From positions 33,091 to 97,090 of IMG/VR virus record IMGVR_UViG_3300045993_000281: a stretch of 64,000 nucleotides of DNA; one strand, written 5' to 3'. Shown one piece after another: positions 10,587 through 63,929 of the stretch; the first letter of the stretch is position 1; the number at the start of each line of letters is the position of its first letter. Origin of the DNA: a virus (lineage: Duplodnaviria; Heunggongvirae; Uroviricota; Caudoviricetes). Below the pieces are notes generated by a model, which saw only the letters and a list, made by a program, of their open reading frames with translations, did no database searches and was not told the DNA's origin. Both the position numbers and the translations under genes were made by a program.

Positions 10587-11774
10587 TTAAGAGTGGAAAA
10601 TCGGGAGAATGCCAAGACTCAAGCAGGTTGCCGTCTTACGTGCCCAGTTACCTGTGGTCGTTGCGCCGACAAGAGCGCCAGCAATAGTTGCGTCTTGTAC
10701 ACCGCCAGTACGGATAGCAACGTAATCGGCATCCGACGGGAACACAGTCGAAGAACCAATCCAATCGTAACCACCTGGATGTGCAACATAGCCCCAACGA
10801 TACCAAATATCCGTAGAGCCACCACCGTTAAATGCGCGAGCATCACGGTAGATCTCAACAGGAGTTGGGACAGCCAACGACTCCATTGCAATTGCACCAG
10901 GCAATACAATAAAAGAAGTTTTAGCACCAACGATATTTGGGCCAGCACCGACGTTAAGCGATGTGATCTCAGCACCAGAGAAGCCCTGCGAAGCACGAGT
11001 TTGAATCAAACGGAACTTACCGCCGAAAATCGTGGTAAACATTACGTTAGCTTCTTGCACGCCATCTTCGTCAACCAAATTGGCGGAACGCAAAGAGGCG
11101 ATAATCTCAGGCGAGGTCACCAGATAAGCGTACTCTGGTTCGTAGTCCTTCCAAGCCATAGCGATCGCTGTCAAAAAGCCTTCAGCGCGTGCAGCGCCTT
11201 GGATTGCAGCTGTGGCGGCAATAACTGGTGCCACACCGCCTAGATCGACGTAGAAGCCAAATTTCTTGTCGGCAGGGTCATTCACAAAGGTTTGCCCACC
11301 AGTACCCGTACCACCGCCAGCGGAAGCGGCACCCATGAGCACTTCGCTCACAGCCACACCACGCAATACAGCCAGAAGAGCGTTATGCTCATCTTGAGCG
11401 CGGGTTTCACCGAAGTCACGAGAAATCTTAGCCAAGCCGTCAACTTGCGAGATGACTTGCTGCAGATTCACTTGAGTAGCACCGTGCGTACGGACGGTTT
11501 TGACATACGAACTGAAGTCAGAAGCGTACGTAGTACCAGTACCGTTTGCTGAGTTCGTCAACGATGCAATGTTGATGGTTGGGTTGAGAGGTTTGAACCA
11601 ACGAACTTGACCGATAAACGTCTCAGTCGAAGTGTTGATACCTGGGTTCGGACCAACGATGCCTGTACCAGACAATTTCTTTGCCGTGGTATAAGCTTCA
11701 TCGCTATACGCGCCAAGTGCCAGTTGTAGCGCATAGGTATTTGAACCGTTAATGTTACTTACAATTGCAGTCAT
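10587..11774 (-). CDS. Major capsid protein
   Basis: 395-aa protein encoded right after a coiled-coil scaffold gene and before the neck genes. Gly/Ala/Thr-rich composition is typical of HK97-fold capsid proteins. The call rests on position, size and composition only. Confidence 0.65.
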   Translation of the reverse strand: MTAIVSNINGSNTYALQLALGAYSDEAYTTAKKLSGTGIVGPNPGINTSTETFIGQVRWFKPLNPTINIASLTNSANGTGTTYASDFSSYVKTVRTHGATQVNLQQVISQVDGLAKISRDFGETRAQDEHNALLAVLRGVAVSEVLMGAASAGGGTGTGGQTFVNDPADKKFGFYVDLGGVAPVIAATAAIQGAARAEGFLTAIAMAWKDYEPEYAYLVTSPEIIASLRSANLVDEDGVQEANVMFTTIFGGKFRLIQTRASQGFSGAEITSLNVGAGPNIVGAKTSFIVLPGAIAMESLAVPTPVEIYRDARAFNGGGSTDIWYRWGYVAHPGGYDWIGSSTVFPSDADYVAIRTGGVQDATIAGALVGATTTGNWARKTATCLSLGILPIFHS

Positions 11775-11785
11775 TTCTTATTTCC

Positions 11786-12535
11786 TTAAAAAGTGGGAAC
11801 TGGCCCAAATTCTCCCTTAGCGGCCCTTGCTATGACCTCTTCCTGGGAAAGCTTGAACAGTGATGGTTTTTCATTTACGACGCCAGCTTTGGCGTCTGGA
11901 TTTGGATTTGTAGTACCGCCACCTGAGTTAACCTTGACCTTAAATAGGAATTCATTTTCGCTGTCTTTTGCGAACGTAGATGCGTAGTCCCGAATGGATA
12001 CACCTGAACGATGGACCCATTGGCCCGCATCATTCTGTACCAGATTCGAACAAAGCTCTCTGAACGCCATGTCAGAAGATTTATCATTCTTAAACTCGAA
12101 GCTCTTCAGTGCTTCGCGCACCGAAACATCACGGCTTAGTTCCGTGTTTTTCTTTTGAAGGGCTTCGTTTTTGGCATTCGCCTCGGCCAGACGCATCTCA
12201 TAAGCTTCCTTATGCTTGCCTTCTGATTCGAGTTGTTTGAGAGTTGCATCACGTTCTTTCTGCTCCAATATAGCTGCCTTCGCTAACGCCTCATCGCGTT
12301 GCGCAAAAGCCTTATCAAGATTTTGCTTGATAGTCAATAATTGAGCATCTACTTTCTCTTGCACGACTTTTGCTACCATATCAGCGTCGCGCTCAGCTTG
12401 TGATTTTCCTTGATTCGCTGCAGCCTCAGCGGCTTTACGTGTTTCTTCTGCAGCAGCAGCCTCTTGTGCTTGTTTTGCAGCAGCAGCCGCAGCATTGGCA
12501 TCGAGGGTTACTTGGTCGTTTACGGGATCAGCCAT
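11786..12535 (-). CDS. Scaffolding protein
   Basis: 249-aa protein with a highly charged, Ala/Glu/Lys/Gln-rich predicted coiled coil (AAAAAKQAQEAAAAEETRKAAEAAANQ...), located immediately upstream of the capsid gene. Confidence 0.6.
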   Translation of the reverse strand: MADPVNDQVTLDANAAAAAAKQAQEAAAAEETRKAAEAAANQGKSQAERDADMVAKVVQEKVDAQLLTIKQNLDKAFAQRDEALAKAAILEQKERDATLKQLESEGKHKEAYEMRLAEANAKNEALQKKNTELSRDVSVREALKSFEFKNDKSSDMAFRELCSNLVQNDAGQWVHRSGVSIRDYASTFAKDSENEFLFKVKVNSGGGTTNPNPDAKAGVVNEKPSLFKLSQEEVIARAAKGEFGPVPTF

Positions 12536-12679: not shown

Positions 12680-15600
12680 TTAACCTATTCCATACCAATA
12701 CCTGTTCTTGTCGAAGTTTTCATCAACATTTCGCAGTATATCAGCACGCGTTAGGATATCCTTCTCTGTCAGAAGCTTACCATCGATACGTGACCGTCCT
12801 ACCACAGGTATCAGGCCGGTATCAATAGCTTCGTTCAGATACTTATCATACAATTCTTTAGGCAAGCCTCTGTTCAGCATCTCTTGAAGGGTGGCTTTAA
12901 TTGACTCGGACTCGACGGCATCGCCGTATATTCCGCGTAACGCGCCACGTGCTCTGAGCATGTCGGAAACATTGGTAAAGAAAGCATCATGAATAGTTGA
13001 AGTACCCACATCAATCTTCTTTCCCCACAGATGAAACTGTTTAACCAATGTAGCGTCATTTGAGTGATTACCATTAACAGCAAAAGCTGTCCTGGCCTTG
13101 TTAGTATCAGTAATTGCGTTTATCTTTCCAGATTTGCCTCTGAACTCTTCCCACCAAGTCGGGTTAGTCTTCTGGGGTACCTGCAAAATATTAGTAACCC
13201 AATGACCATCTTTGTCTTTGTAGTTCAGACGCTCTTCAAACACTTGCGTAAAGTTTTGCTCTATGACTTTTCCGTCAAAGTTAACCCAAGGTATATTATT
13301 CCATTGTTTAGGCAACTTGTTAGGAATGCCGATTTCCATTCCTTGCGTAATGTCCTCAGAGAACAATGAGAAGTTCCCTATCTTGAAACCAGTACGTCTA
13401 GTCGCTGGCGGTGCTACGCCGTTCAACAATTCTGCAGAGATACTAGATGGTAAATAACCCGGAATTCTGTTAAGTAATTTTGTGCGAATAGGCTCATCTT
13501 TGATGGCAAGAATGCGGCTCAACCATTTTGGTAAACGGTCTCCACCATGCTTTTCCCCAAGTAAATACGTTCGCAGGGCAGTGTTGTAGTCCAAGCTACT
13601 GGCCTTTGGCTTCGCATGTAATGCAAAATCATCGGCCAGCCTACCGAAGAACTTAGTGAAGTCACGTAGTATCGGGACTTGAGTGCTCAAATGCTCACTC
13701 ATTATCTTTGCTATCTGCTGGAAATCGTCTGGAGTAACAACTCTTTCATATTCCCTGCTAAGTTTTTCAACAACGTCACGTGTCTGCGAGTCGAGAAAAT
13801 AGAGTTGATCCATAATCTCGTCGCCTGGGTTTAGCCCTTTGTTGAATATATCCTTGACATCTTGTCTTAATGCCTTGAGTTCCAGATACTTATCTTGATC
13901 GAACTTCTCGTATCTGGCCATTCGCGCACTTATTTCGTTTAGTATTTTGTCACGATCAACAGCCTTAACCACAAGCGTTGTGTCTGACTTCTCCAATACC
14001 TTTGCTAGTTTGCCTTCTACGTTCAGGATTCCAGTTCTTTCTCCTGCGCCGTAGAATGTAACCATGTTCTGCGCCTTACTAGCCTTACGTAGATCCTTCT
14101 CAGTCAATCCCAGCTTGACATTAAGTTTCTTGAAGCGTGGGTCATTAAAAGTAGAGTGCGCGATTTCATCATACAATCTTTGCTTTTGATCAGTCGGGAT
14201 TACGTTGCTCAACGCAGCTAACTGTTTGTTCTTGGTTGTGAGTGCAATAATCTGCGCACCCGAGGACGACGCGTCTTGCTCTAACGCTAATGCAGTACTG
14301 TAATCTTTCAACCTTAATAGACTGTTTGCGCTGTAATCGCCCCGTAGAAACTCATCAATCTTGGACATCTCTAAAGCAAATCGTAGTACTTTCCCTTGTT
14401 CTTCACCGTCAATTTGCGCTAAGAACTTTGAGTCAAGCACTCTGCGAATATCCGCAGGTTTTCCTCTTCGCATCGCATCTCCAAGCATTATTAGATCTTT
14501 ACGGTGTTGCATGGCAATTTGTTGACGACCGAGTACAGAAAGAGAATTATACTTACCCTCTAACGCATCCGATGTGCCGCCCAGAAAGCCTCCAATTTGG
14601 TCTTGCAAGTTCTTAAACCCAAGCGCACTGAAATTCTTACTTTCAGCTGTACTCAGAAATGGACGAAACGTCTCGCCCGATTGTGGACTTATAAAGCCTC
14701 TCTCGTAGATACGACCACGGTGGTCTAGAAAGGGATGATTGCTAAACGCAGCATCTTTCGCTCTCAGCCATTCCATGGACTTTAACCGCTCATATGCGTC
14801 TCCACGTTCAACCATGAACTCACGGTATTTGTTTAAGTTATTATAGTACTCAGCCTTGCCCTTGTCATCCTGAAAGTTTATCAGTTTAACTATAAAATCG
14901 TGGAAGTCTGCGTCTATCTTATATTTTGTCTTTGCAGCCCAATTAAGCGCATCCGTCAAATCTTTGTCGATCAGCCCTAATGGGACTTCACTCGAAGCAA
15001 TCTCGATGCGCGTATCATACAAGCCCAACAAACCATCATCCACGTGGTATGTGTTATACCCTTCGCGAATCAGTAATTCGTTCTTCTTGGTGGTAACACC
15101 AATCCTTAAACCAACGTCCACCTTTCTGGTTAGCTTGGCGTACTCTTGTATGCGTGGGTCTGTTATTCTAAGGTTAACCGCGAATGTATCATAGTATGGC
15201 CCGAAATAAGCGCCAAAATTCCTGCTTTTCATACGACGCTTCTGTACACCAAAGGTTTCCAACTCGTAGAAACCCTTGTTATTTGCATCGTCAAGAATCT
15301 TTACACCTAGATTGTACCATTCGTTACGGCTACCTCTGTAGTTGGCCATATTGTACAAATCACGACCGAGTGCAACAGCAAGCTGATCTCTATCAGGATT
15401 GTCAGCTAGGCTCAATCTCCTCGCAAACTTCAAATAGAAATGCTCTAAGTCGTGGTCTTCAATTCTTCTTTTTAATTTAACGGGTATCTTGTAATCCAAT
15501 ACATTTCGTAATTGCTTAGCTATTCGAGGCGCTGTGCGATCTTCCCAATCATTCTTAGCTTTTATGTTTGCTATAAACCCGTCAGATAGAGATTGCAACT

Positions 15601-17287
15601 GAACAGGCCCCAAGACAGGGTCAATATAATTGGCTTGTTTTAGCTTCAACAAAAGGTTGGCATCACGTCGTATCTGTGTCTCCATATAGTCAGATACGTT
15701 CATAATATCGAACTTAATCTGACCTTGAAGGACAGCCTTGAAGTTAGCCCATGCCTCTTTGTTGTCCCTGAAACGACTGAACGTTATGCGCAAGTTTTCT
15801 GTAACGACAGCGCGCTCATTTACGCCCATCCTGTCTTCTAAACCATCGACGAAACCTTTTATGAATTCCTTGTCCTTTGGCTTCAACAGGATACTTTCAT
15901 CCACGTTCTTGTAAGCATTCTCAAGCGTGGCTGGGCTTGGCTGATACATACGCGCATCTTCATATCTACTGGTAATCGGATTGAACTTAAGATTAGCCTC
16001 AGAAGGTGGCGTCGATAGTACACGTGTCTTAGTAGCCTTCTTGGTATGTAACAACGCACCGCGATAATTGGTAAGCGACAGTGTTCCGTCTAATTCGCCT
16101 GCCTGTAACATGTAGTACTCTTTAAGCGCCTTTTGAAGCTCCAAATCGCCATAAAAGTCATCAGGTCGTGCAGCACCTAATTTAATAGTATCAAGTCGAT
16201 CCTTTGCAGCTGCAAACCTTCTGGTGTCTCCAGGTATTCCGTAACCTGAAGTCGTGAGCCTGTTAAGTTCTTTAATCCCAATAGAGTTGCCTGAGGAGTT
16301 GGTGAACTGACTGACGGTAAGTTGCCCGGCCTGGTATGCTTCAACCTTTTTAAGATCACCGAGGTGCTTAAGCTGTACTTGCGTAGGCTGTCGCTGCAAC
16401 CATTCATTGTAGGATTCCTTTAACGGCGTCTGCCCGTCATAAAATGCAATCTGTTTTTCTGTAAGCCCTGCCAAGTTACGTTTACGTATCTGGGCAATGC
16501 CTTCTGACTTGGCAAGCTCATCGTAACTTTTAGTGATAGGCGTGGTTGAAGAACGACAGTACCAATGTGCTGGTGGCAGGTGTTCTGTGTCGCCTACAGG
16601 GTAAATTGTTCCATCACGTCCTGCACATAGCGGCGTAGTACGAGTGTCCAGCACTGCCACATATTGCCATCCTTGCAAGACTTTAGCGTTAGCCTTATAG
16701 ACTTCCTGGTCGGCTTGCGAATACACAGAAGTGGTTGCGGTGACAACAAGCCCCTTTGCTTGATTCTTAGTGATCGCGAAGGTACTTTTAGTAATTTCTT
16801 TGGCGATGTCGCCAGTAGGTAAACCTTCAGCGATACCTTTACGGATTATTCCTTCAATACGAATCTTTTCATTCTTACCGACACCCGCCCAACCCTCTGA
16901 AAGCGTTAGGTTCTGATACAAAGGTTTATGAAGCACGACCTCCTCCGCAACACGGCGTGGAGGTGTAGCTACATGCCATATATCAGACACGGCTTCGCTA
17001 AGGTTGTTAACTGTATGGGATATCTGACTTTTGAACAAGTCAAGCAAGGCTCTAGAAGTCGTATTATGAGCATTAGACATGGTCTTAATGATCTCTGCGT
17101 CTAGCGCCTTCTGGAAACTAGCGAAATCTTTTCCTTGTAGTTTAGATTCTCTTACTAGTTTGTCTACGCGTATGGCGTGACCATCTACGATAAGTTCGAC
17201 TTTCGAAGAGGTGCGTTGCTCATATAAGCGAACCATTGCGGCTCTATCGACACTTTTATCATAGATAAGTGTATTGGCGTTAGTCAT
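12680..17287 (-). CDS. Fusion of a Mu-F-like minor head protein with a T7-like single-subunit RNA polymerase (1535 aa)
   Basis: An N-terminal Mu-F/SPP1 gp7-like motif is present at residues ~205-250 (GWQYVAVLDTRTTPLCAGRDGTIYPVGDTEHLPPAHWYCRSS). C-terminal single-subunit RNAP signatures, in order:
- FLDHRGRIYERGF (compare T7 RNAP DWRGRVYAVSMF)
- DASSSGAQIIALTT (motif A, compare DGSCSGIQHFSAML)
- KASKAQNMVTFYGAGERTG (motif B with Lys and YG)
- TIHDAFFT (motif C, compare IHDSFGT). Confidence 0.8.
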   Translation of the reverse strand: MTNANTLIYDKSVDRAAMVRLYEQRTSSKVELIVDGHAIRVDKLVRESKLQGKDFASFQKALDAEIIKTMSNAHNTTSRALLDLFKSQISHTVNNLSEAVSDIWHVATPPRRVAEEVVLHKPLYQNLTLSEGWAGVGKNEKIRIEGIIRKGIAEGLPTGDIAKEITKSTFAITKNQAKGLVVTATTSVYSQADQEVYKANAKVLQGWQYVAVLDTRTTPLCAGRDGTIYPVGDTEHLPPAHWYCRSSTTPITKSYDELAKSEGIAQIRKRNLAGLTEKQIAFYDGQTPLKESYNEWLQRQPTQVQLKHLGDLKKVEAYQAGQLTVSQFTNSSGNSIGIKELNRLTTSGYGIPGDTRRFAAAKDRLDTIKLGAARPDDFYGDLELQKALKEYYMLQAGELDGTLSLTNYRGALLHTKKATKTRVLSTPPSEANLKFNPITSRYEDARMYQPSPATLENAYKNVDESILLKPKDKEFIKGFVDGLEDRMGVNERAVVTENLRITFSRFRDNKEAWANFKAVLQGQIKFDIMNVSDYMETQIRRDANLLLKLKQANYIDPVLGPVQLQSLSDGFIANIKAKNDWEDRTAPRIAKQLRNVLDYKIPVKLKRRIEDHDLEHFYLKFARRLSLADNPDRDQLAVALGRDLYNMANYRGSRNEWYNLGVKILDDANNKGFYELETFGVQKRRMKSRNFGAYFGPYYDTFAVNLRITDPRIQEYAKLTRKVDVGLRIGVTTKKNELLIREGYNTYHVDDGLLGLYDTRIEIASSEVPLGLIDKDLTDALNWAAKTKYKIDADFHDFIVKLINFQDDKGKAEYYNNLNKYREFMVERGDAYERLKSMEWLRAKDAAFSNHPFLDHRGRIYERGFISPQSGETFRPFLSTAESKNFSALGFKNLQDQIGGFLGGTSDALEGKYNSLSVLGRQQIAMQHRKDLIMLGDAMRRGKPADIRRVLDSKFLAQIDGEEQGKVLRFALEMSKIDEFLRGDYSANSLLRLKDYSTALALEQDASSSGAQIIALTTKNKQLAALSNVIPTDQKQRLYDEIAHSTFNDPRFKKLNVKLGLTEKDLRKASKAQNMVTFYGAGERTGILNVEGKLAKVLEKSDTTLVVKAVDRDKILNEISARMARYEKFDQDKYLELKALRQDVKDIFNKGLNPGDEIMDQLYFLDSQTRDVVEKLSREYERVVTPDDFQQIAKIMSEHLSTQVPILRDFTKFFGRLADDFALHAKPKASSLDYNTALRTYLLGEKHGGDRLPKWLSRILAIKDEPIRTKLLNRIPGYLPSSISAELLNGVAPPATRRTGFKIGNFSLFSEDITQGMEIGIPNKLPKQWNNIPWVNFDGKVIEQNFTQVFEERLNYKDKDGHWVTNILQVPQKTNPTWWEEFRGKSGKINAITDTNKARTAFAVNGNHSNDATLVKQFHLWGKKIDVGTSTIHDAFFTNVSDMLRARGALRGIYGDAVESESIKATLQEMLNRGLPKELYDKYLNEAIDTGLIPVVGRSRIDGKLLTEKDILTRADILRNVDENFDKNRYWYGIG

Positions 17288-18075: not shown

Positions 18076-18552
18076 TTAACTCTCTTTCGCAAAGTCTCCG
18101 TGATGCACGGCGGTAAGTTTATCTCTAGCTGCTTTTGCCTCTTCGATAGTACTGAAAAGCCCTATTGTCTCTCGCTTACCATCCACGACTATGCGTGCTC
18201 TTGCCTTGCCGCGATAAACATCAATCCCTTTCGCGCCAGTCGTATTATTAACTGGTGTCGACCTGTTCTGTGCATTCTCTACACTAGTAGCTGCACGTAG
18301 GTTGCCAGGATTGTTGTTTAGTCGATTGGTGTCTTCATGATCTACTAATGGCGGCAGTGTGCCGTACTCCATCAGATAGATTAATCGATGCACCTTATAG
18401 GTTTGACCCTGATATTTTACCTGCAGATAACCTTCGCCATTTTTTGTTCCGACTTCGGTATCTCTGACTATCGACGGCCCCATGCTTACTCGCCAATACA
18501 ATTTACCACCTTTGTGGTACCATATTTTCTCTGCTTTGGCTTTTGTTAACAT
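18076..18552 (-). CDS. HNH homing endonuclease (HNH_3 plus AP2 DNA-binding domain)
   Basis: VHRLIY...LVDHEDTNRLNNNPGNLRAATSVENAQN is an HNH_3 motif. GAKGIDVYRGKARARIVVDGKRETIGLFSTIEEAKAARD is AP2-like. It is inserted between the portal and head-morphogenesis genes. Confidence 0.85.
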   Translation of the reverse strand: MLTKAKAEKIWYHKGGKLYWRVSMGPSIVRDTEVGTKNGEGYLQVKYQGQTYKVHRLIYLMEYGTLPPLVDHEDTNRLNNNPGNLRAATSVENAQNRSTPVNNTTGAKGIDVYRGKARARIVVDGKRETIGLFSTIEEAKAARDKLTAVHHGDFAKES

Positions 18553-18554
18553 GA

Positions 18555-20249
18555 CTATTTCTTAGACGGCACTGGAGGAGGTGGATTATCTAAGGCATGT
18601 TGATCCAACTCAGCCTGGCGTTTAGCAGCATGCATCTTCGATACGGCTGGATCTATTCCTGCATCTCTAGCAATAGCATCAGCGTAGCTAGGATCAGCAG
18701 TAGGCGTAGCAATAAGTTCGTCCGTTAACATCTCAGTACGACCTGCAGCGTCATCGTAATCCGGTGCTAGCATGTCATTTGACTTAATCATCTGCAGCCA
18801 TGCACTACGTGGTAATAGTTTCTTCTCGTACCATTCAGTAGCAAGACGTAACCAATCAGCGCCTAGTGGAGCAGGATTAAAGTCAGCAGATAACTCAAAG
18901 CATACATCGGCAGTTCTTAACGTTAAATCATAACGCCAATTTACCATAAAGGCAATGACGCTAGCAAGTGTATTGCTAATCTTTACATTAAGAGTACCTA
19001 ACTGTGCAGTTTGTGTAGCATTCCGAATATCCAAAGCTACACCCGATTGGGCAGTCTCTGGTGTCAGCATGCGAATACCTAGCTTAGCCAGCTCATCAAT
19101 CGTTGCAACAATGCTCCTGTCCATATCAGCAAGAGCTTCTGTGGGGGTATCTAGCACAGTCAGTGTATCGCCTGTACGTAGATGTATCCATGAGCCTAAC
19201 CCGCCACCGACAACGTCTGTGAACTGGTCATCAGTCATATCAGATGCTAATACAGGTGTATACGTAGATGCGCCATACAGTAGATGGTTACGACGGCTAA
19301 CCTTGTTATACAAGGATACTTCCCTGTCCACCAAGGGTGTAAGCATCGGCTCTACAATATCGATACTTCCATTTAAAGGCCATGCAGGGATGAATGTTAG
19401 GCGCTGTCCATTGCATACAATATTCGTATTTGTTTCTAGTAGCGCGTATGCGGTAAGCTTTGGGTCAGCACCTGCAGCACTATACTTGTAATCCTGTATG
19501 ATTTTACCATTTTGGATTAGTGTTTGCGCATCCTGAGTAGGCTTTTGATACTTACGTATCTGATAATACCCACCAACAAGTTCATGAACCCAGACCGTAT
19601 CTAGGTAAGACGGATGGAACGCGCCATCAGCATATACTTCCTCATAATTGCGGGTAATGACCTGGATAAGTTCTTGTTCTCCAGTCACTTCGTTCACAGA
19701 GACACGCCAATTAATAACGGTCTCTGCGTTCCATAATACAGGGAATGGCTTCAGGGCATCTCGATCTTCAGTAGACATCCCCTCTAGCATCTTTTCAGTC
19801 ACCTTAGGGTAATCGACATAGACCCATGCACGGTTAGTCTGCATTTCTTCCCAAAGAGCGGTATCTAGAAAGGATATCAAAGGTGAGCTATCTTGCGAAA
19901 ACTCATTAAGAATCCAATCCTTAGCGTCCTCGGGAACGTCAGTTTTAAAAGTTAGTTGCGGTTGTTTTCGTAGCAGCCCACCTACAATGATCTTCGCATA
20001 CTGCGCAATAATACCTGGCAGTTCAGCTTCTGCTTTAAAGAAATTGTACTGCGCAGGAGTCATTGAGGGCGAGAAAGGTAGCAATATATTCGAAAAGGTG
20101 ATCAGGTCTAGAAAGCTGTCAAAGTCCTTAACGTAACGTTCGCCACCTAAGATAGCCCTTGCCCGATCCCATGCAGGACGCATTGATACATATGCGGAGG
20201 TGGGGTCTGCCACACTCTTCTTAATTACGCTGGCATTGACAACTGTCAT
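18555..20249 (-). CDS. Portal protein
   Basis: 564-aa protein encoded upstream (in transcription order) of the Mu-F-like gene, scaffold and capsid. The size and its placement right after the terminase/fiber block fit a portal; the call is positional plus general features. Confidence 0.65.
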   Translation of the reverse strand: MTVVNASVIKKSVADPTSAYVSMRPAWDRARAILGGERYVKDFDSFLDLITFSNILLPFSPSMTPAQYNFFKAEAELPGIIAQYAKIIVGGLLRKQPQLTFKTDVPEDAKDWILNEFSQDSSPLISFLDTALWEEMQTNRAWVYVDYPKVTEKMLEGMSTEDRDALKPFPVLWNAETVINWRVSVNEVTGEQELIQVITRNYEEVYADGAFHPSYLDTVWVHELVGGYYQIRKYQKPTQDAQTLIQNGKIIQDYKYSAAGADPKLTAYALLETNTNIVCNGQRLTFIPAWPLNGSIDIVEPMLTPLVDREVSLYNKVSRRNHLLYGASTYTPVLASDMTDDQFTDVVGGGLGSWIHLRTGDTLTVLDTPTEALADMDRSIVATIDELAKLGIRMLTPETAQSGVALDIRNATQTAQLGTLNVKISNTLASVIAFMVNWRYDLTLRTADVCFELSADFNPAPLGADWLRLATEWYEKKLLPRSAWLQMIKSNDMLAPDYDDAAGRTEMLTDELIATPTADPSYADAIARDAGIDPAVSKMHAAKRQAELDQHALDNPPPPVPSKK

Positions 20250-26249: not shown

Positions 26250-27596
26250 TTAAAAACCGAAGCCTCGACCACTGGTTTTGTGTCCCGATAAAATTGGGAA
26301 AAGATATTCAGTTGAGTATCGAATGCCGTCTGAGAAGTGCTCGACACCCTCAGTTTTGTCTATAGTGAGTGTATCGGGGTTCTTGTCAACCCAGGAGGTA
26401 CGCTCTAGGGATGTAATAATGCCACTACATGAGGGGAGCGCAAACATGTTACACTCACCAGCTGCAGTCATTAACATACGATTTACAGCGGCTACACTGT
26501 CTACAATAGCAGGTGATTTGTTACGTGCCCTTAGAATGTAATTAAAGGGCTGACCTGATAATATTGTAAAGTCAGTAACACCTACAGGTGCGCTTGTTTT
26601 TCTCGATTTACCCGTTGGATCTGGGTATACGAATATTCTTGGATGTTTATCTTTAGGATACCGGCCTCTTATTGCAATAGCAAGTGTTTCTGTATCAGGA
26701 TGCCCTTTGAACTCGTCAATGAAGTGCATTTGTTTACCCCGTAAGGCAAACACGCTACTACACTGCAGACCTACGTTAAAGTCAATCCCGATATGAACGT
26801 CCTCACCCTCAGCGAATGGAGGGATATCTTTTCTAACATGAATCTTTCGATTAAAGCAATAGAATACATTATTACCTGAGTCTTCAAATGAGGCCTTGTA
26901 CTCTCGTGCGAATCTGATAGGATCAATCGTATGTCTGATTTTCTCTATCTCATCGGGGTCGAGCAAGGGTGATTGTGTATAATCGAAATGATATGATTTA
27001 TAACTCTTGTCGAGCTCTTGCATATTAAACATATCATACAAGAAATTGAAGCCTGTCGGTGTGCCAATAGTTAGCGACCGTCCTGGACTCTTAGCGCCAA
27101 AGAATTTAGCCCTCATAGGAGACCAACGAGTAGATATACAAGGTTGTATAACTGCTTGCCAAGCTTCCTTAAAGCCTAATCCCTTTGTCCATGAACAGGG
27201 TTCGTCATTAACTACAAAATAAGCGCCCTTACCACGCATGCGCTCAACGGCCTCAAACGAAACCATTCGTAGTTCTACATTCTTGGGAAACCAAAGCTTC
27301 CCATCGAACTTACTATGTTTTGATACATAACTCTCCATTCCTAATTGATACATTAACAATGGATAGTAAATGTCTGTCACTTGATCGAATGTTGGTGCTA
27401 TAATGTAGACGTGCTTATTAGGAACACTCTCGTCTAACTCTAGCAATTCAGTAATAGCTGTAATGGCAGCAACTCCTGCCATATGAGACTTACCCCAGCC
27501 ACGAGAGGTCACAGCTACTGCATTAAGGACGTTCTTATCAACGAACATATCCTTAAATATTGTCGACTGGCCTGGGTGGAGTAGAATATTAGACAT
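26250..27596 (-). CDS. terL: Terminase large subunit
   Basis: 448 aa. Walker A-like AVTSRGWGKSHMA, Walker B-like YFVVNDEP, and a C-terminal nuclease-like acidic region. Confidence 0.85.
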   Translation of the reverse strand: MSNILLHPGQSTIFKDMFVDKNVLNAVAVTSRGWGKSHMAGVAAITAITELLELDESVPNKHVYIIAPTFDQVTDIYYPLLMYQLGMESYVSKHSKFDGKLWFPKNVELRMVSFEAVERMRGKGAYFVVNDEPCSWTKGLGFKEAWQAVIQPCISTRWSPMRAKFFGAKSPGRSLTIGTPTGFNFLYDMFNMQELDKSYKSYHFDYTQSPLLDPDEIEKIRHTIDPIRFAREYKASFEDSGNNVFYCFNRKIHVRKDIPPFAEGEDVHIGIDFNVGLQCSSVFALRGKQMHFIDEFKGHPDTETLAIAIRGRYPKDKHPRIFVYPDPTGKSRKTSAPVGVTDFTILSGQPFNYILRARNKSPAIVDSVAAVNRMLMTAAGECNMFALPSCSGIITSLERTSWVDKNPDTLTIDKTEGVEHFSDGIRYSTEYLFPILSGHKTSGRGFGF

Positions 27597-49661: not shown

Positions 49662-49887
49662 TGATGCCCATATAAGATACCCTACGCCCCGATGGGAATA
49701 AGGCTAATGTAGCAGTTTCTCTCCAACTACCAAAGTCAAGTTTACTGCGCGTGATTGTTAGGATACTTTTTCCTAACAAATTCTACCACTATTGTTACAG
49801 TCCCGCGACTTGTTATTATTACACATTGCGGTTAGCAATGGGCATCGCGGCGCACCAAGAGTGGAGGCCAAACCGCCATACTACGGG

Positions 49888-61553: not shown

Positions 61554-63929
61554 TTAGATTATTGTTTTCTCTACCGTATACAACGATACTCCGTGACTAC
61601 ACAACAGACGCCACAAACCTATCGCGTACTGAATTGGCCACAACACATTCTCCTCTACCTTAGGCAAATCCGAATTCTGTCTTTGCACATAAAAGTTTTT
61701 AGAGGCGTGGTCATAAACAACCTCCAGCACCTTCGGGCATGTTTCACTGAAGTGCAGCGTCCAATTTGTGAAATCTAGCGCCAACTTCACTTGAGAGTAA
61801 CCTGCTGCTCTGAGTGCCCTTATAACTTCGGCCAATTCACCGGAATTACTTACAAGAACGGCTTGTGAACCTATCTTGTATTCTTTGAACTCCTCTTTGC
61901 CAAGACGTCCAGTCACGAGATAACGAACATACTCCGATTTGTGATACTTAAACATACTACGGAATCTCTCGTCTTCCTTAAGAAGAAGTGACATTATCCA
62001 TTTCTGTTTCGACGGAAACTCTTCCTGTATCAGCACCAGATTGTTCAACTCATCACCGGTCAAGATGGTGGGTTTAATGGTATAGTACTGCAGCAGTTCG
62101 AGAATATTAGCTTCGGTAGGCCTTTCGTACGCTAATGGCGGATTCTCCAGGAGTCGTTTGTAATTACCAAGCACCCACTTAGCCTCATCGTAGTCAAAGT
62201 TCTTCTTAAACGCCACGATACTGGAATTAGCGTCTACAGGTGGTTTGGCATTCTCTGCAATAAATCTCTCGAATCCGATCTGGCGGAGTTCGCCGAGCAA
62301 TTCTACCGAGTCAACTTTATACCGTAGTCCAACTGGAAGAAATACCAGTTGTTTTAGATTAGCGCTGTAGTCGCCTGAAAACGTCCTTACTTTTTCCAAA
62401 TTTACACTAATGCCATAGTACGCCAATTGAACAGCGATGTCCTCTACTGTTTTGTCCATCTCACCCTTGTCATGCCCGAACAGCAGTATATCGTCAACAA
62501 AGGAATAGCAGTCAACGGCATTTCGTAGCAAGTACGACATTACAATCGTGGACAGTGCATGCTCATAATTAGAGTCAATTGTGAGTTTGTCCAAACAACC
62601 GTTTGCAGTCATTGCTTTTCTGATCAAGGACAGTGCGCGTTGGCATCCGTCTCTTTGCTCTTCGTTGCAAAAATACATAACTGCGTCTTCTACTAGCTTG
62701 TAGGTAACCTTGTTAAAGAAGTCACTTAAATCAAAATACATGCAATGTTGGAACTTCCCACTAGCCTTAACACCAAGCTCCCTGTACAGGTTGTAGGTGT
62801 AGATATACGGTATTAGTCTCCCGTCATTGATGCGGCTACCAAGGTTGGACGTCGGTATATTGAGCAATCCATACAGCTTGTCTACACCTACTGCCATTAG
62901 AATGTTGTCGAAGTCCGACCGAAATTCCATAAGGCGGTTTCCTGCAAACTTCTCACCATTTTTGGGGACAAACCGTGAAGGCTTTATAGAGAACATCGTG
63001 TCCAGCGTCCGAACACTGTCCGTGAAACGTGAACGGAAGACTTGATATGCTGCGTCGTCAGTTGTCTCCAGCGCCTCAAACAGAAGCGCGGTGAAGTTAT
63101 CCTGATAGACGGAATAGCCCAAATGGTCGTACTGAATATGCTTAGAGATATTTGTGCGTAGTGAGGACACCACCCGTTTCAATTCTTTGTACGAGGCGTA
63201 TTTGGCATACGTCATGCCCAGCCCCAGCTGGTTCGCGTAGAACTCTGTCAAGTCCTTCGGCAAGTCGCCTACAAGACATGTGCCTTGTTCAACTAATCCG
63301 TACAACAGAAAACTAGGCTGTGACGTCATATTTTTGGGGTTGGAGTACACAACTATTCCAGTCTCAGGCTGTAAGTACTTTCCAATCAACTGTGAATCTT
63401 TTGCGTAGAACTTGTTTTCGTCAGATGATGAAACGAACTCCTTGACTTTGTTATTACCACCGACAATCTGATACTCGAATAGAATATCTTCCGCATCTTC
63501 GCCGGATACAAAGCTTTCTATTCTTTCCGCGCGTGTGTTTATTTCAAAATTAAACAACAATTTTGCGCTAGCACCGAACCGGTAACCGGATAACGACATG
63601 TCTTCAAGCTTTACTGCTTGTGATGACATTTGGTAGTCAGCATCACGATACCGATTAATGAAGTACTGAGTACCTTCATCCGTATCAATAGCCTTCCGGA
63701 CAGTCTGCGGCACAAGCCGGATTTGTTCGGTGGCGTGTCCCAGAATCTTGCAAGAGAACCGCTTAGCATTGTCTGCCAAGTACTTCTTGTAGAACCTTTC
63801 AATGTTATCCGTGAGATACACCACCAACTGAGCCGCGCTGGTTCTGCTGTGTATCTCGCGAGCCAACACTAGTGTCATCTTGATTTTCGAATCATTTATT
63901 GTTGCAGTTATCTTTTGCATTTTATTCAC
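61554..63929 (-). CDS. Reverse-transcriptase-like polymerase (791 aa) with large N- and C-terminal extensions
   Basis: RT motifs in canonical order at residues ~319-515:
- Motifs 1/2: RFVPKNGEKFAGNRLM, SDFDNILMAVGVDKL
- Motif A: MYFDLSDFFNKV
- Motif B': HALSTIVMSYLLRNAV (compare QG..SPLLANIYL)
- Motif C: YSFVDDILLFG (YxDD)
- Motif E-like: GISVNLEKVRTF (compare GLxLNxEKT). Confidence 0.75.
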   Translation of the reverse strand: MNKMQKITATINDSKIKMTLVLAREIHSRTSAAQLVVYLTDNIERFYKKYLADNAKRFSCKILGHATEQIRLVPQTVRKAIDTDEGTQYFINRYRDADYQMSSQAVKLEDMSLSGYRFGASAKLLFNFEINTRAERIESFVSGEDAEDILFEYQIVGGNNKVKEFVSSSDENKFYAKDSQLIGKYLQPETGIVVYSNPKNMTSQPSFLLYGLVEQGTCLVGDLPKDLTEFYANQLGLGMTYAKYASYKELKRVVSSLRTNISKHIQYDHLGYSVYQDNFTALLFEALETTDDAAYQVFRSRFTDSVRTLDTMFSIKPSRFVPKNGEKFAGNRLMEFRSDFDNILMAVGVDKLYGLLNIPTSNLGSRINDGRLIPYIYTYNLYRELGVKASGKFQHCMYFDLSDFFNKVTYKLVEDAVMYFCNEEQRDGCQRALSLIRKAMTANGCLDKLTIDSNYEHALSTIVMSYLLRNAVDCYSFVDDILLFGHDKGEMDKTVEDIAVQLAYYGISVNLEKVRTFSGDYSANLKQLVFLPVGLRYKVDSVELLGELRQIGFERFIAENAKPPVDANSSIVAFKKNFDYDEAKWVLGNYKRLLENPPLAYERPTEANILELLQYYTIKPTILTGDELNNLVLIQEEFPSKQKWIMSLLLKEDERFRSMFKYHKSEYVRYLVTGRLGKEEFKEYKIGSQAVLVSNSGELAEVIRALRAAGYSQVKLALDFTNWTLHFSETCPKVLEVVYDHASKNFYVQRQNSDLPKVEENVLWPIQYAIGLWRLLCSHGVSLYTVEKTII

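What the first reader, a model, noticed from the sequence alone, without database searches (positions are those of the whole stretch)
12680..17287. Mu-F-like minor head domain fused to a T7-like single-subunit RNA polymerase: candidate virion-packaged, injected RNAP
The 1535-aa product has two parts. The first ~300 residues resemble the Mu gpF/SPP1 gp7 minor-head family, proteins that are packaged inside capsids and can carry cargo ejected with the DNA. The rest carries ordered single-subunit RNAP catalytic motifs:
- DHRGRIY (T7 D421-like region)
- DASSSGAQI (motif A)
- KASKAQNMVTFYGAG (motif B with Lys/Tyr/Gly)
- IHDAFFT (motif C)

The gene sits between portal and scaffold, exactly where Mu-F-type head proteins are encoded. 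A capsid-delivered RNAP, analogous in logic to coliphage N4 vRNAP but fused to a different delivery vehicle, would make early transcription independent of the host and resistant to host RNAP-targeting defences. The region between motifs B and C is ~180 aa longer than in T7 RNAP and could hold a promoter-recognition insertion. This specific fusion architecture may be undescribed. I cannot verify that from here.
Basis: partly seen in the sequence, partly recalled or inferred. Interest (0 to 1): 0.9.

Follow-up and report, generated by a model that had tools for sequence, protein, structure and literature searches.

The report
Head-protein-fused T7-type phage RNA polymerase
A phage gene joins a capsid-interior "MuF" head protein to a complete T7-type RNA polymerase, most likely so that the enzyme travels inside the virus particle and starts transcription on entry; this design is common in uncultured phages but is annotated everywhere as a plain head protein.

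Summary

The fusion is universal in this polymerase clade: 33 of 33 long cluster representatives, and 365 IMG/VR stretches. The clade includes the cultured dU-DNA roseophage DSS3_VP1. The gene always sits between portal and capsid genes.

New here:
- The same genomes, including this phage's own, also carry a separate free T7-like RNAP, about 14 kb beyond the window.
- Two or three copies of an invariant element (TTGCGGAAAA-N3-GTATCTTATATGA) lie just upstream of that gene, in genomes of 34-62% GC.

This supports an N4-like cascade: an injected polymerase, then early genes with the second polymerase. Packaging and injection remain inferred. No paper describing the fusion was found. I rate it a new variant of a known kind, of high interest.

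The parts
12680..17287 (-). MuF-RNAP fusion gene, 1535 aa plus stop codon
   Evidence: ORF list and translation. The exact protein is in JGI/IMG on a 97,090-bp contig, named only 'SPP1 gp7 family putative phage head morphogenesis protein'.
16253..17287 (-). N-terminal MuF/SPP1 gp7-type minor head domain (aa 1-345)
   Evidence: PHROG 241 matches aa 1-344 at E 1.6e-56. The MuF core DxRT..C...DG...PP.H..CRS is conserved in 24 diverse members.
16544..16858 (-). Pfam Phage_Mu_F core (aa 144-248)
   Evidence: PF04233, E 8.8e-14, 52.6 bits against a cut-off of 29.6.
15368..16252 (-). Family-specific, mostly helical middle region (aa 346-640); no known family
   Evidence: Conserved in most clade members by phmmer. 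Modelled as helices with some low-confidence stretches. No PDB fold match.
12683..15367 (-). Single-subunit (T7-type) RNA polymerase module (about aa 641-1535)
14705..14725 (-). T/DxxGR motif DHRGRIY (aa 855-861)
   Evidence: Aligned by HMMER to T7 DWRGRVY. Conserved in the main clade.
14249..14275 (-). Motif A, DASSSGAQI (catalytic D1005)
   Evidence: Aligned to N4 RNAPII DATSSGLQI. The Asp is present in all 24 aligned members.
14042..14086 (-). Motif B, R1067-K1071-M1075-Y1079-G1080
   Evidence: Spacing R-x3-K-x3-M-x3-YG read from the sequence; the match to T7 R627/K631/M635/Y639/G640 rests on T7 numbering from knowledge. Conserved. In EBPR siphovirus 1 a group I intron sits exactly here.
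12995..14041 (-). Enlarged segment between motifs B and C (aa 1083-1431; about 180 aa longer than in T7), helical then beta-rich
   Evidence: Positions; secondary structure of the model. A role in promoter recognition is inferred only.
13055..13075 (-). NGNHSND (H1408, equivalent of T7 H784)
   Evidence: HMMER alignment to T7 HSQD. Conserved.
12974..12994 (-). Motif C, IHDAFFT (H1433, D1434)
   Evidence: HMMER alignment to T7 IHDSF (H811, D812). The Asp is present in all 24 aligned members.
18555..20249 (-). Portal protein gene (upstream context)
   Evidence: PHROG 145, E 4.2e-40.
18076..18552 (-). HNH endonuclease between portal and the fusion gene
   Evidence: PHROG 99, E 1.1e-49.
11786..12535 (-). 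249-aa ORF; scaffold by position only
   Evidence: No PHROG or Pfam hit. A similar-sized ORF (747 nt, 'hypothetical protein') occupies the same position in DSS3_VP1; homology was not tested.
10587..11774 (-). Major capsid protein gene (downstream context)
   Evidence: PHROG 247, E 2.4e-16.
26250..27596 (-). Terminase large subunit; the late module starts upstream of here
   Evidence: Pfam Terminase_6N, E 2.7e-5.
49668..49680 (-). Only in-window near-copy of the clade's early element (GTATCTTATATGG, one mismatch, lacks the GCGG-AAAA upstream half)
   Evidence: About 0.08 such hits are expected by chance in the window (my estimate). Uncertain.

Best explanation
The ORF encodes a catalytically competent T7-type single-subunit RNA polymerase. 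It is permanently fused to a MuF/SPP1 gp7-type minor head domain.

Proposed mechanism:
1. The fusion is made late, with the head proteins.
2. The MuF part takes it into the procapsid at the portal. This step is inferred.
3. It leaves the capsid with the DNA at the next infection. This step is inferred.
4. Being the only phage polymerase present at time zero, it transcribes the first few kilobases of the genome from two or three copies of a clade-wide conserved promoter-like element, TTGCGGAAAA-N3-GTATCTTATATGA. That the element is a promoter, and that this enzyme reads it, are both inferred.
5. Those early transcripts include a second, free T7-like RNAP gene, which then takes over. That the early transcripts reach this gene, and that its product then takes over, are both inferred.

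The scheme is a two-polymerase cascade of the phage N4 type, built on a different delivery vehicle and found in long-tailed phages. Because all genes point the same way, transcription by the injected enzyme may also help draw the genome in. That last point is speculative.

Shown here: the architecture, the fold, conservation of the catalytic residues, universality of the fusion, the head-module synteny, the co-occurrence of two polymerases, and the conserved early element.
For: Domains and fold:
- Both Pfam domains score above their cut-offs, and the PHROG hits agree.
- The AF2 model of aa 340-1535 has pLDDT 77.5.
- Its Foldseek top 50 are all T7, human or yeast mitochondrial RNAPs (E 1e-17 to 1e-14).

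Catalytic residues:
- T/DxxGR, motif A Asp, motif B with the RNAP-type R-K-M-YG spacing, the H784 equivalent and motif C His-Asp align to T7 and N4 RNAPII.
- They are conserved in 24 members down to about 25% identity.
- A group I intron with an HNH gene sits inside motif B in EBPR siphovirus 1. Such introns typically sit at conserved sites of functional genes.

Fusion and synteny:
- All 33 cluster representatives of 1000 aa or more found with the RNAP part alone carry the N-terminal MuF domain. No free version of this polymerase clade was found.
- 365 IMG/VR stretches encode relatives.
- The order portal, fusion, an unnamed ORF, capsid is kept in DSS3_VP1; in EBPR siphovirus 1 the flanking genes are unannotated in the record and were not checked.
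- MuF proteins are head components that carry fused effectors thought to be delivered into the host (PMC5512222).

Second polymerase:
- DSS3_VP1 gp080 is a free T7-like RNAP.
- Relatives have one 2-3 kb upstream of the DNA polymerase gene.
- The same contigs carry both polymerases.
- This phage's own contig carries P0346, 764 aa, PF00940.

Early element:
- The 13-nt core occurs 26 times on the coding strand and never on the other strand in 425 kb of early and replication loci.
- It occurs zero times in 791 kb of structural loci.
- There are two or three copies per genome, 1.3-3.8 kb upstream of the free RNAP gene.
- The core is invariant in genomes of 34-62% GC.
- A 9/13-identical pair sits at the equivalent place in DSS3_VP1.
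Against: - No virion proteomics, transcription data or biochemistry exists for any member. The DSS3_VP1 paper does not mention an RNA polymerase.
- Ejection of MuF-type proteins is itself poorly documented.
- A 173-kDa protein must pass a long non-contractile tail.
- The early element contains a TATAAT-like stretch (TATGAT in about half the copies, TATAAT in DSS3_VP1), so host sigma-70 RNAP is not excluded as its reader.
- Nothing links the element specifically to the fused rather than the free polymerase, except that it is restricted to the region upstream of the free polymerase gene.
- The N-terminal 640 aa modelled poorly (pLDDT 64) and matched no solved structure.
- The element lies outside the window. 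Inside the window there is only a one-mismatch half-site.
Confidence: 0.6

Rival explanations
1. The fusion is packaged and injected, but its job is not early mRNA synthesis. It primes DNA replication, protects or pilots the leading DNA end, or acts mainly as a motor that pulls the genome in. Host RNAP reads the conserved early element.
For: - T7 and mitochondrial RNAPs also make replication primers (established knowledge).
- The early element has a -10-like TATGAT/TATAAT stretch.
- All genes are co-directional, as in T7, where transcription internalises DNA.
Against: - In the early element the would-be spacer is invariant and the -35-like part is weak. This is the opposite of sigma-70 promoters.
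- The element is identical in genomes of 34% and 62% GC, which presumably infect different hosts.
- The phage encodes its own primase-helicase.
Confidence: 0.17
2. The protein is not delivered. It works in the producing cell late in infection, for example as a late-gene or packaging-coupled polymerase tethered to proheads through the MuF domain. If packaged at all, it is a passenger.
For: - The gene is expressed with the late structural genes, judged by its position.
- No promoter family for middle or late genes was found, so the division of labour between the two polymerases is open.
Against: - It would have to transcribe the operon that encodes it.
- A free RNAP already exists in the same genome.
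- A strictly conserved covalent link to a capsid-interior domain in every clade member is hard to explain for an intracellular enzyme.
- N4 vRNAP is likewise a late gene product (PMC4496689 abstract).
Confidence: 0.12
3. The RNAP module is a catalytically dead structural or DNA-binding remnant, and the protein is just a large minor head protein.
For: - Databases annotate it only as a head morphogenesis protein.
- Sequence similarity to known RNAPs is very low: phmmer against PDB finds no RNAP, and hhalign against the clade's own free RNAPs gives 15% probability.
Against: - Both catalytic Asp residues are kept in all 24 aligned members; the motif B Lys/Tyr/Gly, the H784 equivalent and T/DxxGR are kept in all but the most divergent members.
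- Pfam RNA_pol scores above its cut-off, also in distant members.
- The full T7-like fold is predicted.
Confidence: 0.04

Closest known systems
Coliphage N4 virion RNA polymerase gp50 (Schitoviridae) and its three-polymerase cascade
   Same: - A T7-type single-subunit RNAP is encoded among late and virion genes.
- A second phage RNAP is encoded among early genes.
- Only a few early promoter-like elements are present per genome.
   Different: - About 3500 aa in N4 against 1535 aa here.
- In N4 the polymerase is flanked by N4-specific N- and C-terminal regions, including a zincin-like peptidase domain, and was reported only in N4-like phages (PMC5512222). Here the only partner is an N-terminal MuF domain.
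- The genome is siphovirus-like, with a very long tail ORF (>2442 aa, function not tested) and a major tail protein. It is not a podovirus.
- The candidate promoter is a linear 26-nt element with no conserved hairpin.
MuF (Phage_Mu_F / SPP1 gp7) minor head proteins with fused effector domains (MuF polymorphic toxins, polyvalent proteins)
   Same: - The N-terminal MuF domain scores above the Pfam cut-off.
- The gene follows the portal gene.
- The C-terminal cargo is variable. Some homologs carry extra inserted domains, one weakly ParB_N-like.
   Different: - Described cargos are toxins, RNases, ADP-ribosyltransferases, RelA/SpoT and similar (PMC5512222). An RNA polymerase cargo was not found in the literature searched.
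- Here the cargo is fixed across the whole clade rather than polymorphic.
T7 RNA polymerase and T7-type genome organisation (Autographiviridae)
   Same: - The fold and all catalytic motifs.
- A unidirectional genome.
- A free RNAP gene close to the start of the transcription order, present in this phage as P0346.
   Different: - The T7 enzyme is a free early protein made from host-RNAP transcripts, with no virion copy.
- The fused polymerase is about 12-17% identical to T7 RNAP and has about 180 extra residues between motifs B and C.
Other virion RNAPs: crAss-like phage phi14:2 gp66, and phiKZ/AR9 multisubunit virion RNAPs
   Same: - The logic: a packaged polymerase gives host-independent early transcription.
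- AR9, like clade member DSS3_VP1, has dU-DNA and two phage RNAPs (abstracts).
   Different: - Those enzymes are two-barrel or multisubunit polymerases, unrelated in fold to this T7-type enzyme.

Membership tests
Phage_Mu_F / SPP1 gp7 minor head proteins (PF04233) | Sequence match to the family profile above the curated threshold | tested here: met
   PF04233 scores 52.6 bits against a cut-off of 29.6. PHROG 241 gives E 1.6e-56 over aa 1-344.
Phage_Mu_F / SPP1 gp7 minor head proteins (PF04233) | Gene in the head module next to or just after the portal gene | tested here: met
   The order is portal 18555-20249, HNH, two small ORFs, fusion gene, a 249-aa ORF, MCP. DSS3_VP1 has the same order.
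Phage_Mu_F / SPP1 gp7 minor head proteins (PF04233) | Physical presence in the capsid or binding to portal | not testable with these tools
   No proteomics exists for any member.
Phage_Mu_F / SPP1 gp7 minor head proteins (PF04233) | Fold match to a solved MuF-type structure | tested here: inconclusive
   The N-terminal model has pLDDT 64, and no PDB match reaches E 0.001.
Single-subunit DNA-dependent RNA polymerases (PF00940; T7 / mitochondrial / N4 type) | Profile match above the curated threshold | tested here: met
   RNA_pol scores 36.2 bits against a cut-off of 22. Distant members also pass.
Single-subunit DNA-dependent RNA polymerases (PF00940; T7 / mitochondrial / N4 type) | Right-hand polymerase fold closest to RNAPs rather than to Pol I DNA polymerases | tested here: met
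Single-subunit DNA-dependent RNA polymerases (PF00940; T7 / mitochondrial / N4 type) | Catalytic Asp residues of motifs A and C | tested here: met
   D1005 and D1434 are aligned to T7 and N4 RNAPII and conserved.
Single-subunit DNA-dependent RNA polymerases (PF00940; T7 / mitochondrial / N4 type) | Motif B Lys/Tyr/Gly, plus the His that senses the 2'-OH (T7 K631, Y639, G640, H784) | tested here: met
   K1071, Y1079, G1080 and H1408 are present. The spacing R-x3-K-x3-M-x3-YG matches T7.
Single-subunit DNA-dependent RNA polymerases (PF00940; T7 / mitochondrial / N4 type) | T/DxxGR motif | tested here: met
   DHRGRIY aligns with T7 DWRGRVY.
Single-subunit DNA-dependent RNA polymerases (PF00940; T7 / mitochondrial / N4 type) | Template-dependent RNA synthesis | not testable with these tools
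   This needs biochemistry.
N4-like virion RNAP (Schitoviridae gp50 family) | A giant polypeptide of about 3500 aa with N4-type N- and C-terminal regions, including a zincin-like peptidase domain | tested here: not met
   The protein is 1535 aa. The only Pfam families above threshold are Phage_Mu_F and RNA_pol. The family definition is taken from PMC5512222.
N4-like virion RNAP (Schitoviridae gp50 family) | Closest sequence or structure relative is N4 mini-vRNAP | tested here: not met
N4-like virion RNAP (Schitoviridae gp50 family) | Hairpin-form early promoters | tested here: inconclusive
   The candidate early element can form a 7-bp stem in this phage, but that pairing is not conserved in relatives (by inspection).
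Free early T7-like RNAP (Autographiviridae type) | A stand-alone early gene of about 750-900 aa | tested here: not met
   The fused ORF does not meet this. It is met by a different gene of the same phage, P0346 (764 aa), outside the window.

The most novel reading that the evidence does not exclude
This is a further, independently evolved class of virion-delivered RNA polymerase, and the first in long-tailed siphovirus-like phages. A T7-type enzyme rides on a MuF head protein and reads an ultra-conserved early promoter of about 26 nt. It launches a two-polymerase cascade that makes a large, globally distributed clade, including the dU-DNA Naomviridae, independent of host RNA polymerase from the first minute of infection.
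Probability: 0.5. Interest if true: 0.85.

Novelty: new variant of a known kind. Interest (0 to 1): 0.78.

Why it matters
Virion-packaged RNA polymerases are known from three phage groups only: N4-like, crAss-like and jumbo phages. Each changed how early infection and host takeover are understood.

- **A fourth route.** A MuF-tethered T7-type enzyme in siphovirus-like phages would show that 'bring your own polymerase' has evolved repeatedly.
- **MuF as a carrier.** It would show that MuF is a general vehicle for large functional enzymes, not only for toxins.
- **Transit through the tail.** It raises the question of how a 173-kDa enzyme passes through a long tail.
- **Transcription of dU-DNA.** It could explain how dU-DNA phages such as DSS3_VP1 get their modified genomes transcribed.
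- **A testable system.** DSS3_VP1 and its host Ruegeria pomeroyi DSS-3 are in culture, and a precise candidate promoter is now in hand.
- **Practical uses.** The clade offers a new, very divergent single-subunit RNAP and promoter pair for orthogonal expression. Hundreds of database entries labelled 'head morphogenesis protein' need re-annotation.

Tried and rejected
- **Second polymerase in the window.** I asked whether the RVT_1-like 791-aa ORF (61554-63929) was it. It shares no similarity with DSS3_VP1 gp080 and has no PHROG hit. The real second RNAP lies outside the window.
- **Inteins.** The longer homologs (1626-1775 aa) do not contain inteins. Their inserts lack intein ends and are accessory domains at two sites.
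- **Promoter motifs inside the window:**
  - The repeat TTAACCAAGAGGAG is an extended ribosome-binding context.
  - TAGCCGG and TGTTAACTG are few and partly fall in tRNA or hairpins.
  - A cluster of six ATCTnTWCAGCAAnnCC copies at 45.6-46.1 kb and 35.4 kb is real but absent from relatives. It remains unexplained.
- **Sigma-70 scan of the early region.** It found fewer promoter-like sites than the shuffled controls.
- **dU-DNA genes.** No homolog of the DSS3_VP1 dCTP deaminase or HD dTMP phosphatase is in the window. Nothing suggests that this phage has dU-DNA.
- **Exact-sequence searches for the source contig.** Searches of viral and metagenome collections found nothing. The contig was reached through exact protein look-up instead.
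- **Relatives of the RT-like gene.** Single-protein locus finding for it failed.
- **N-terminal half.** The fold search gave only noise.
- **Sequence-only comparisons.** phmmer against PDB found no RNAP, and a profile search gave only sub-threshold T7 hits. Structure prediction was needed.
- **Rfam.** The window holds only four tRNAs.
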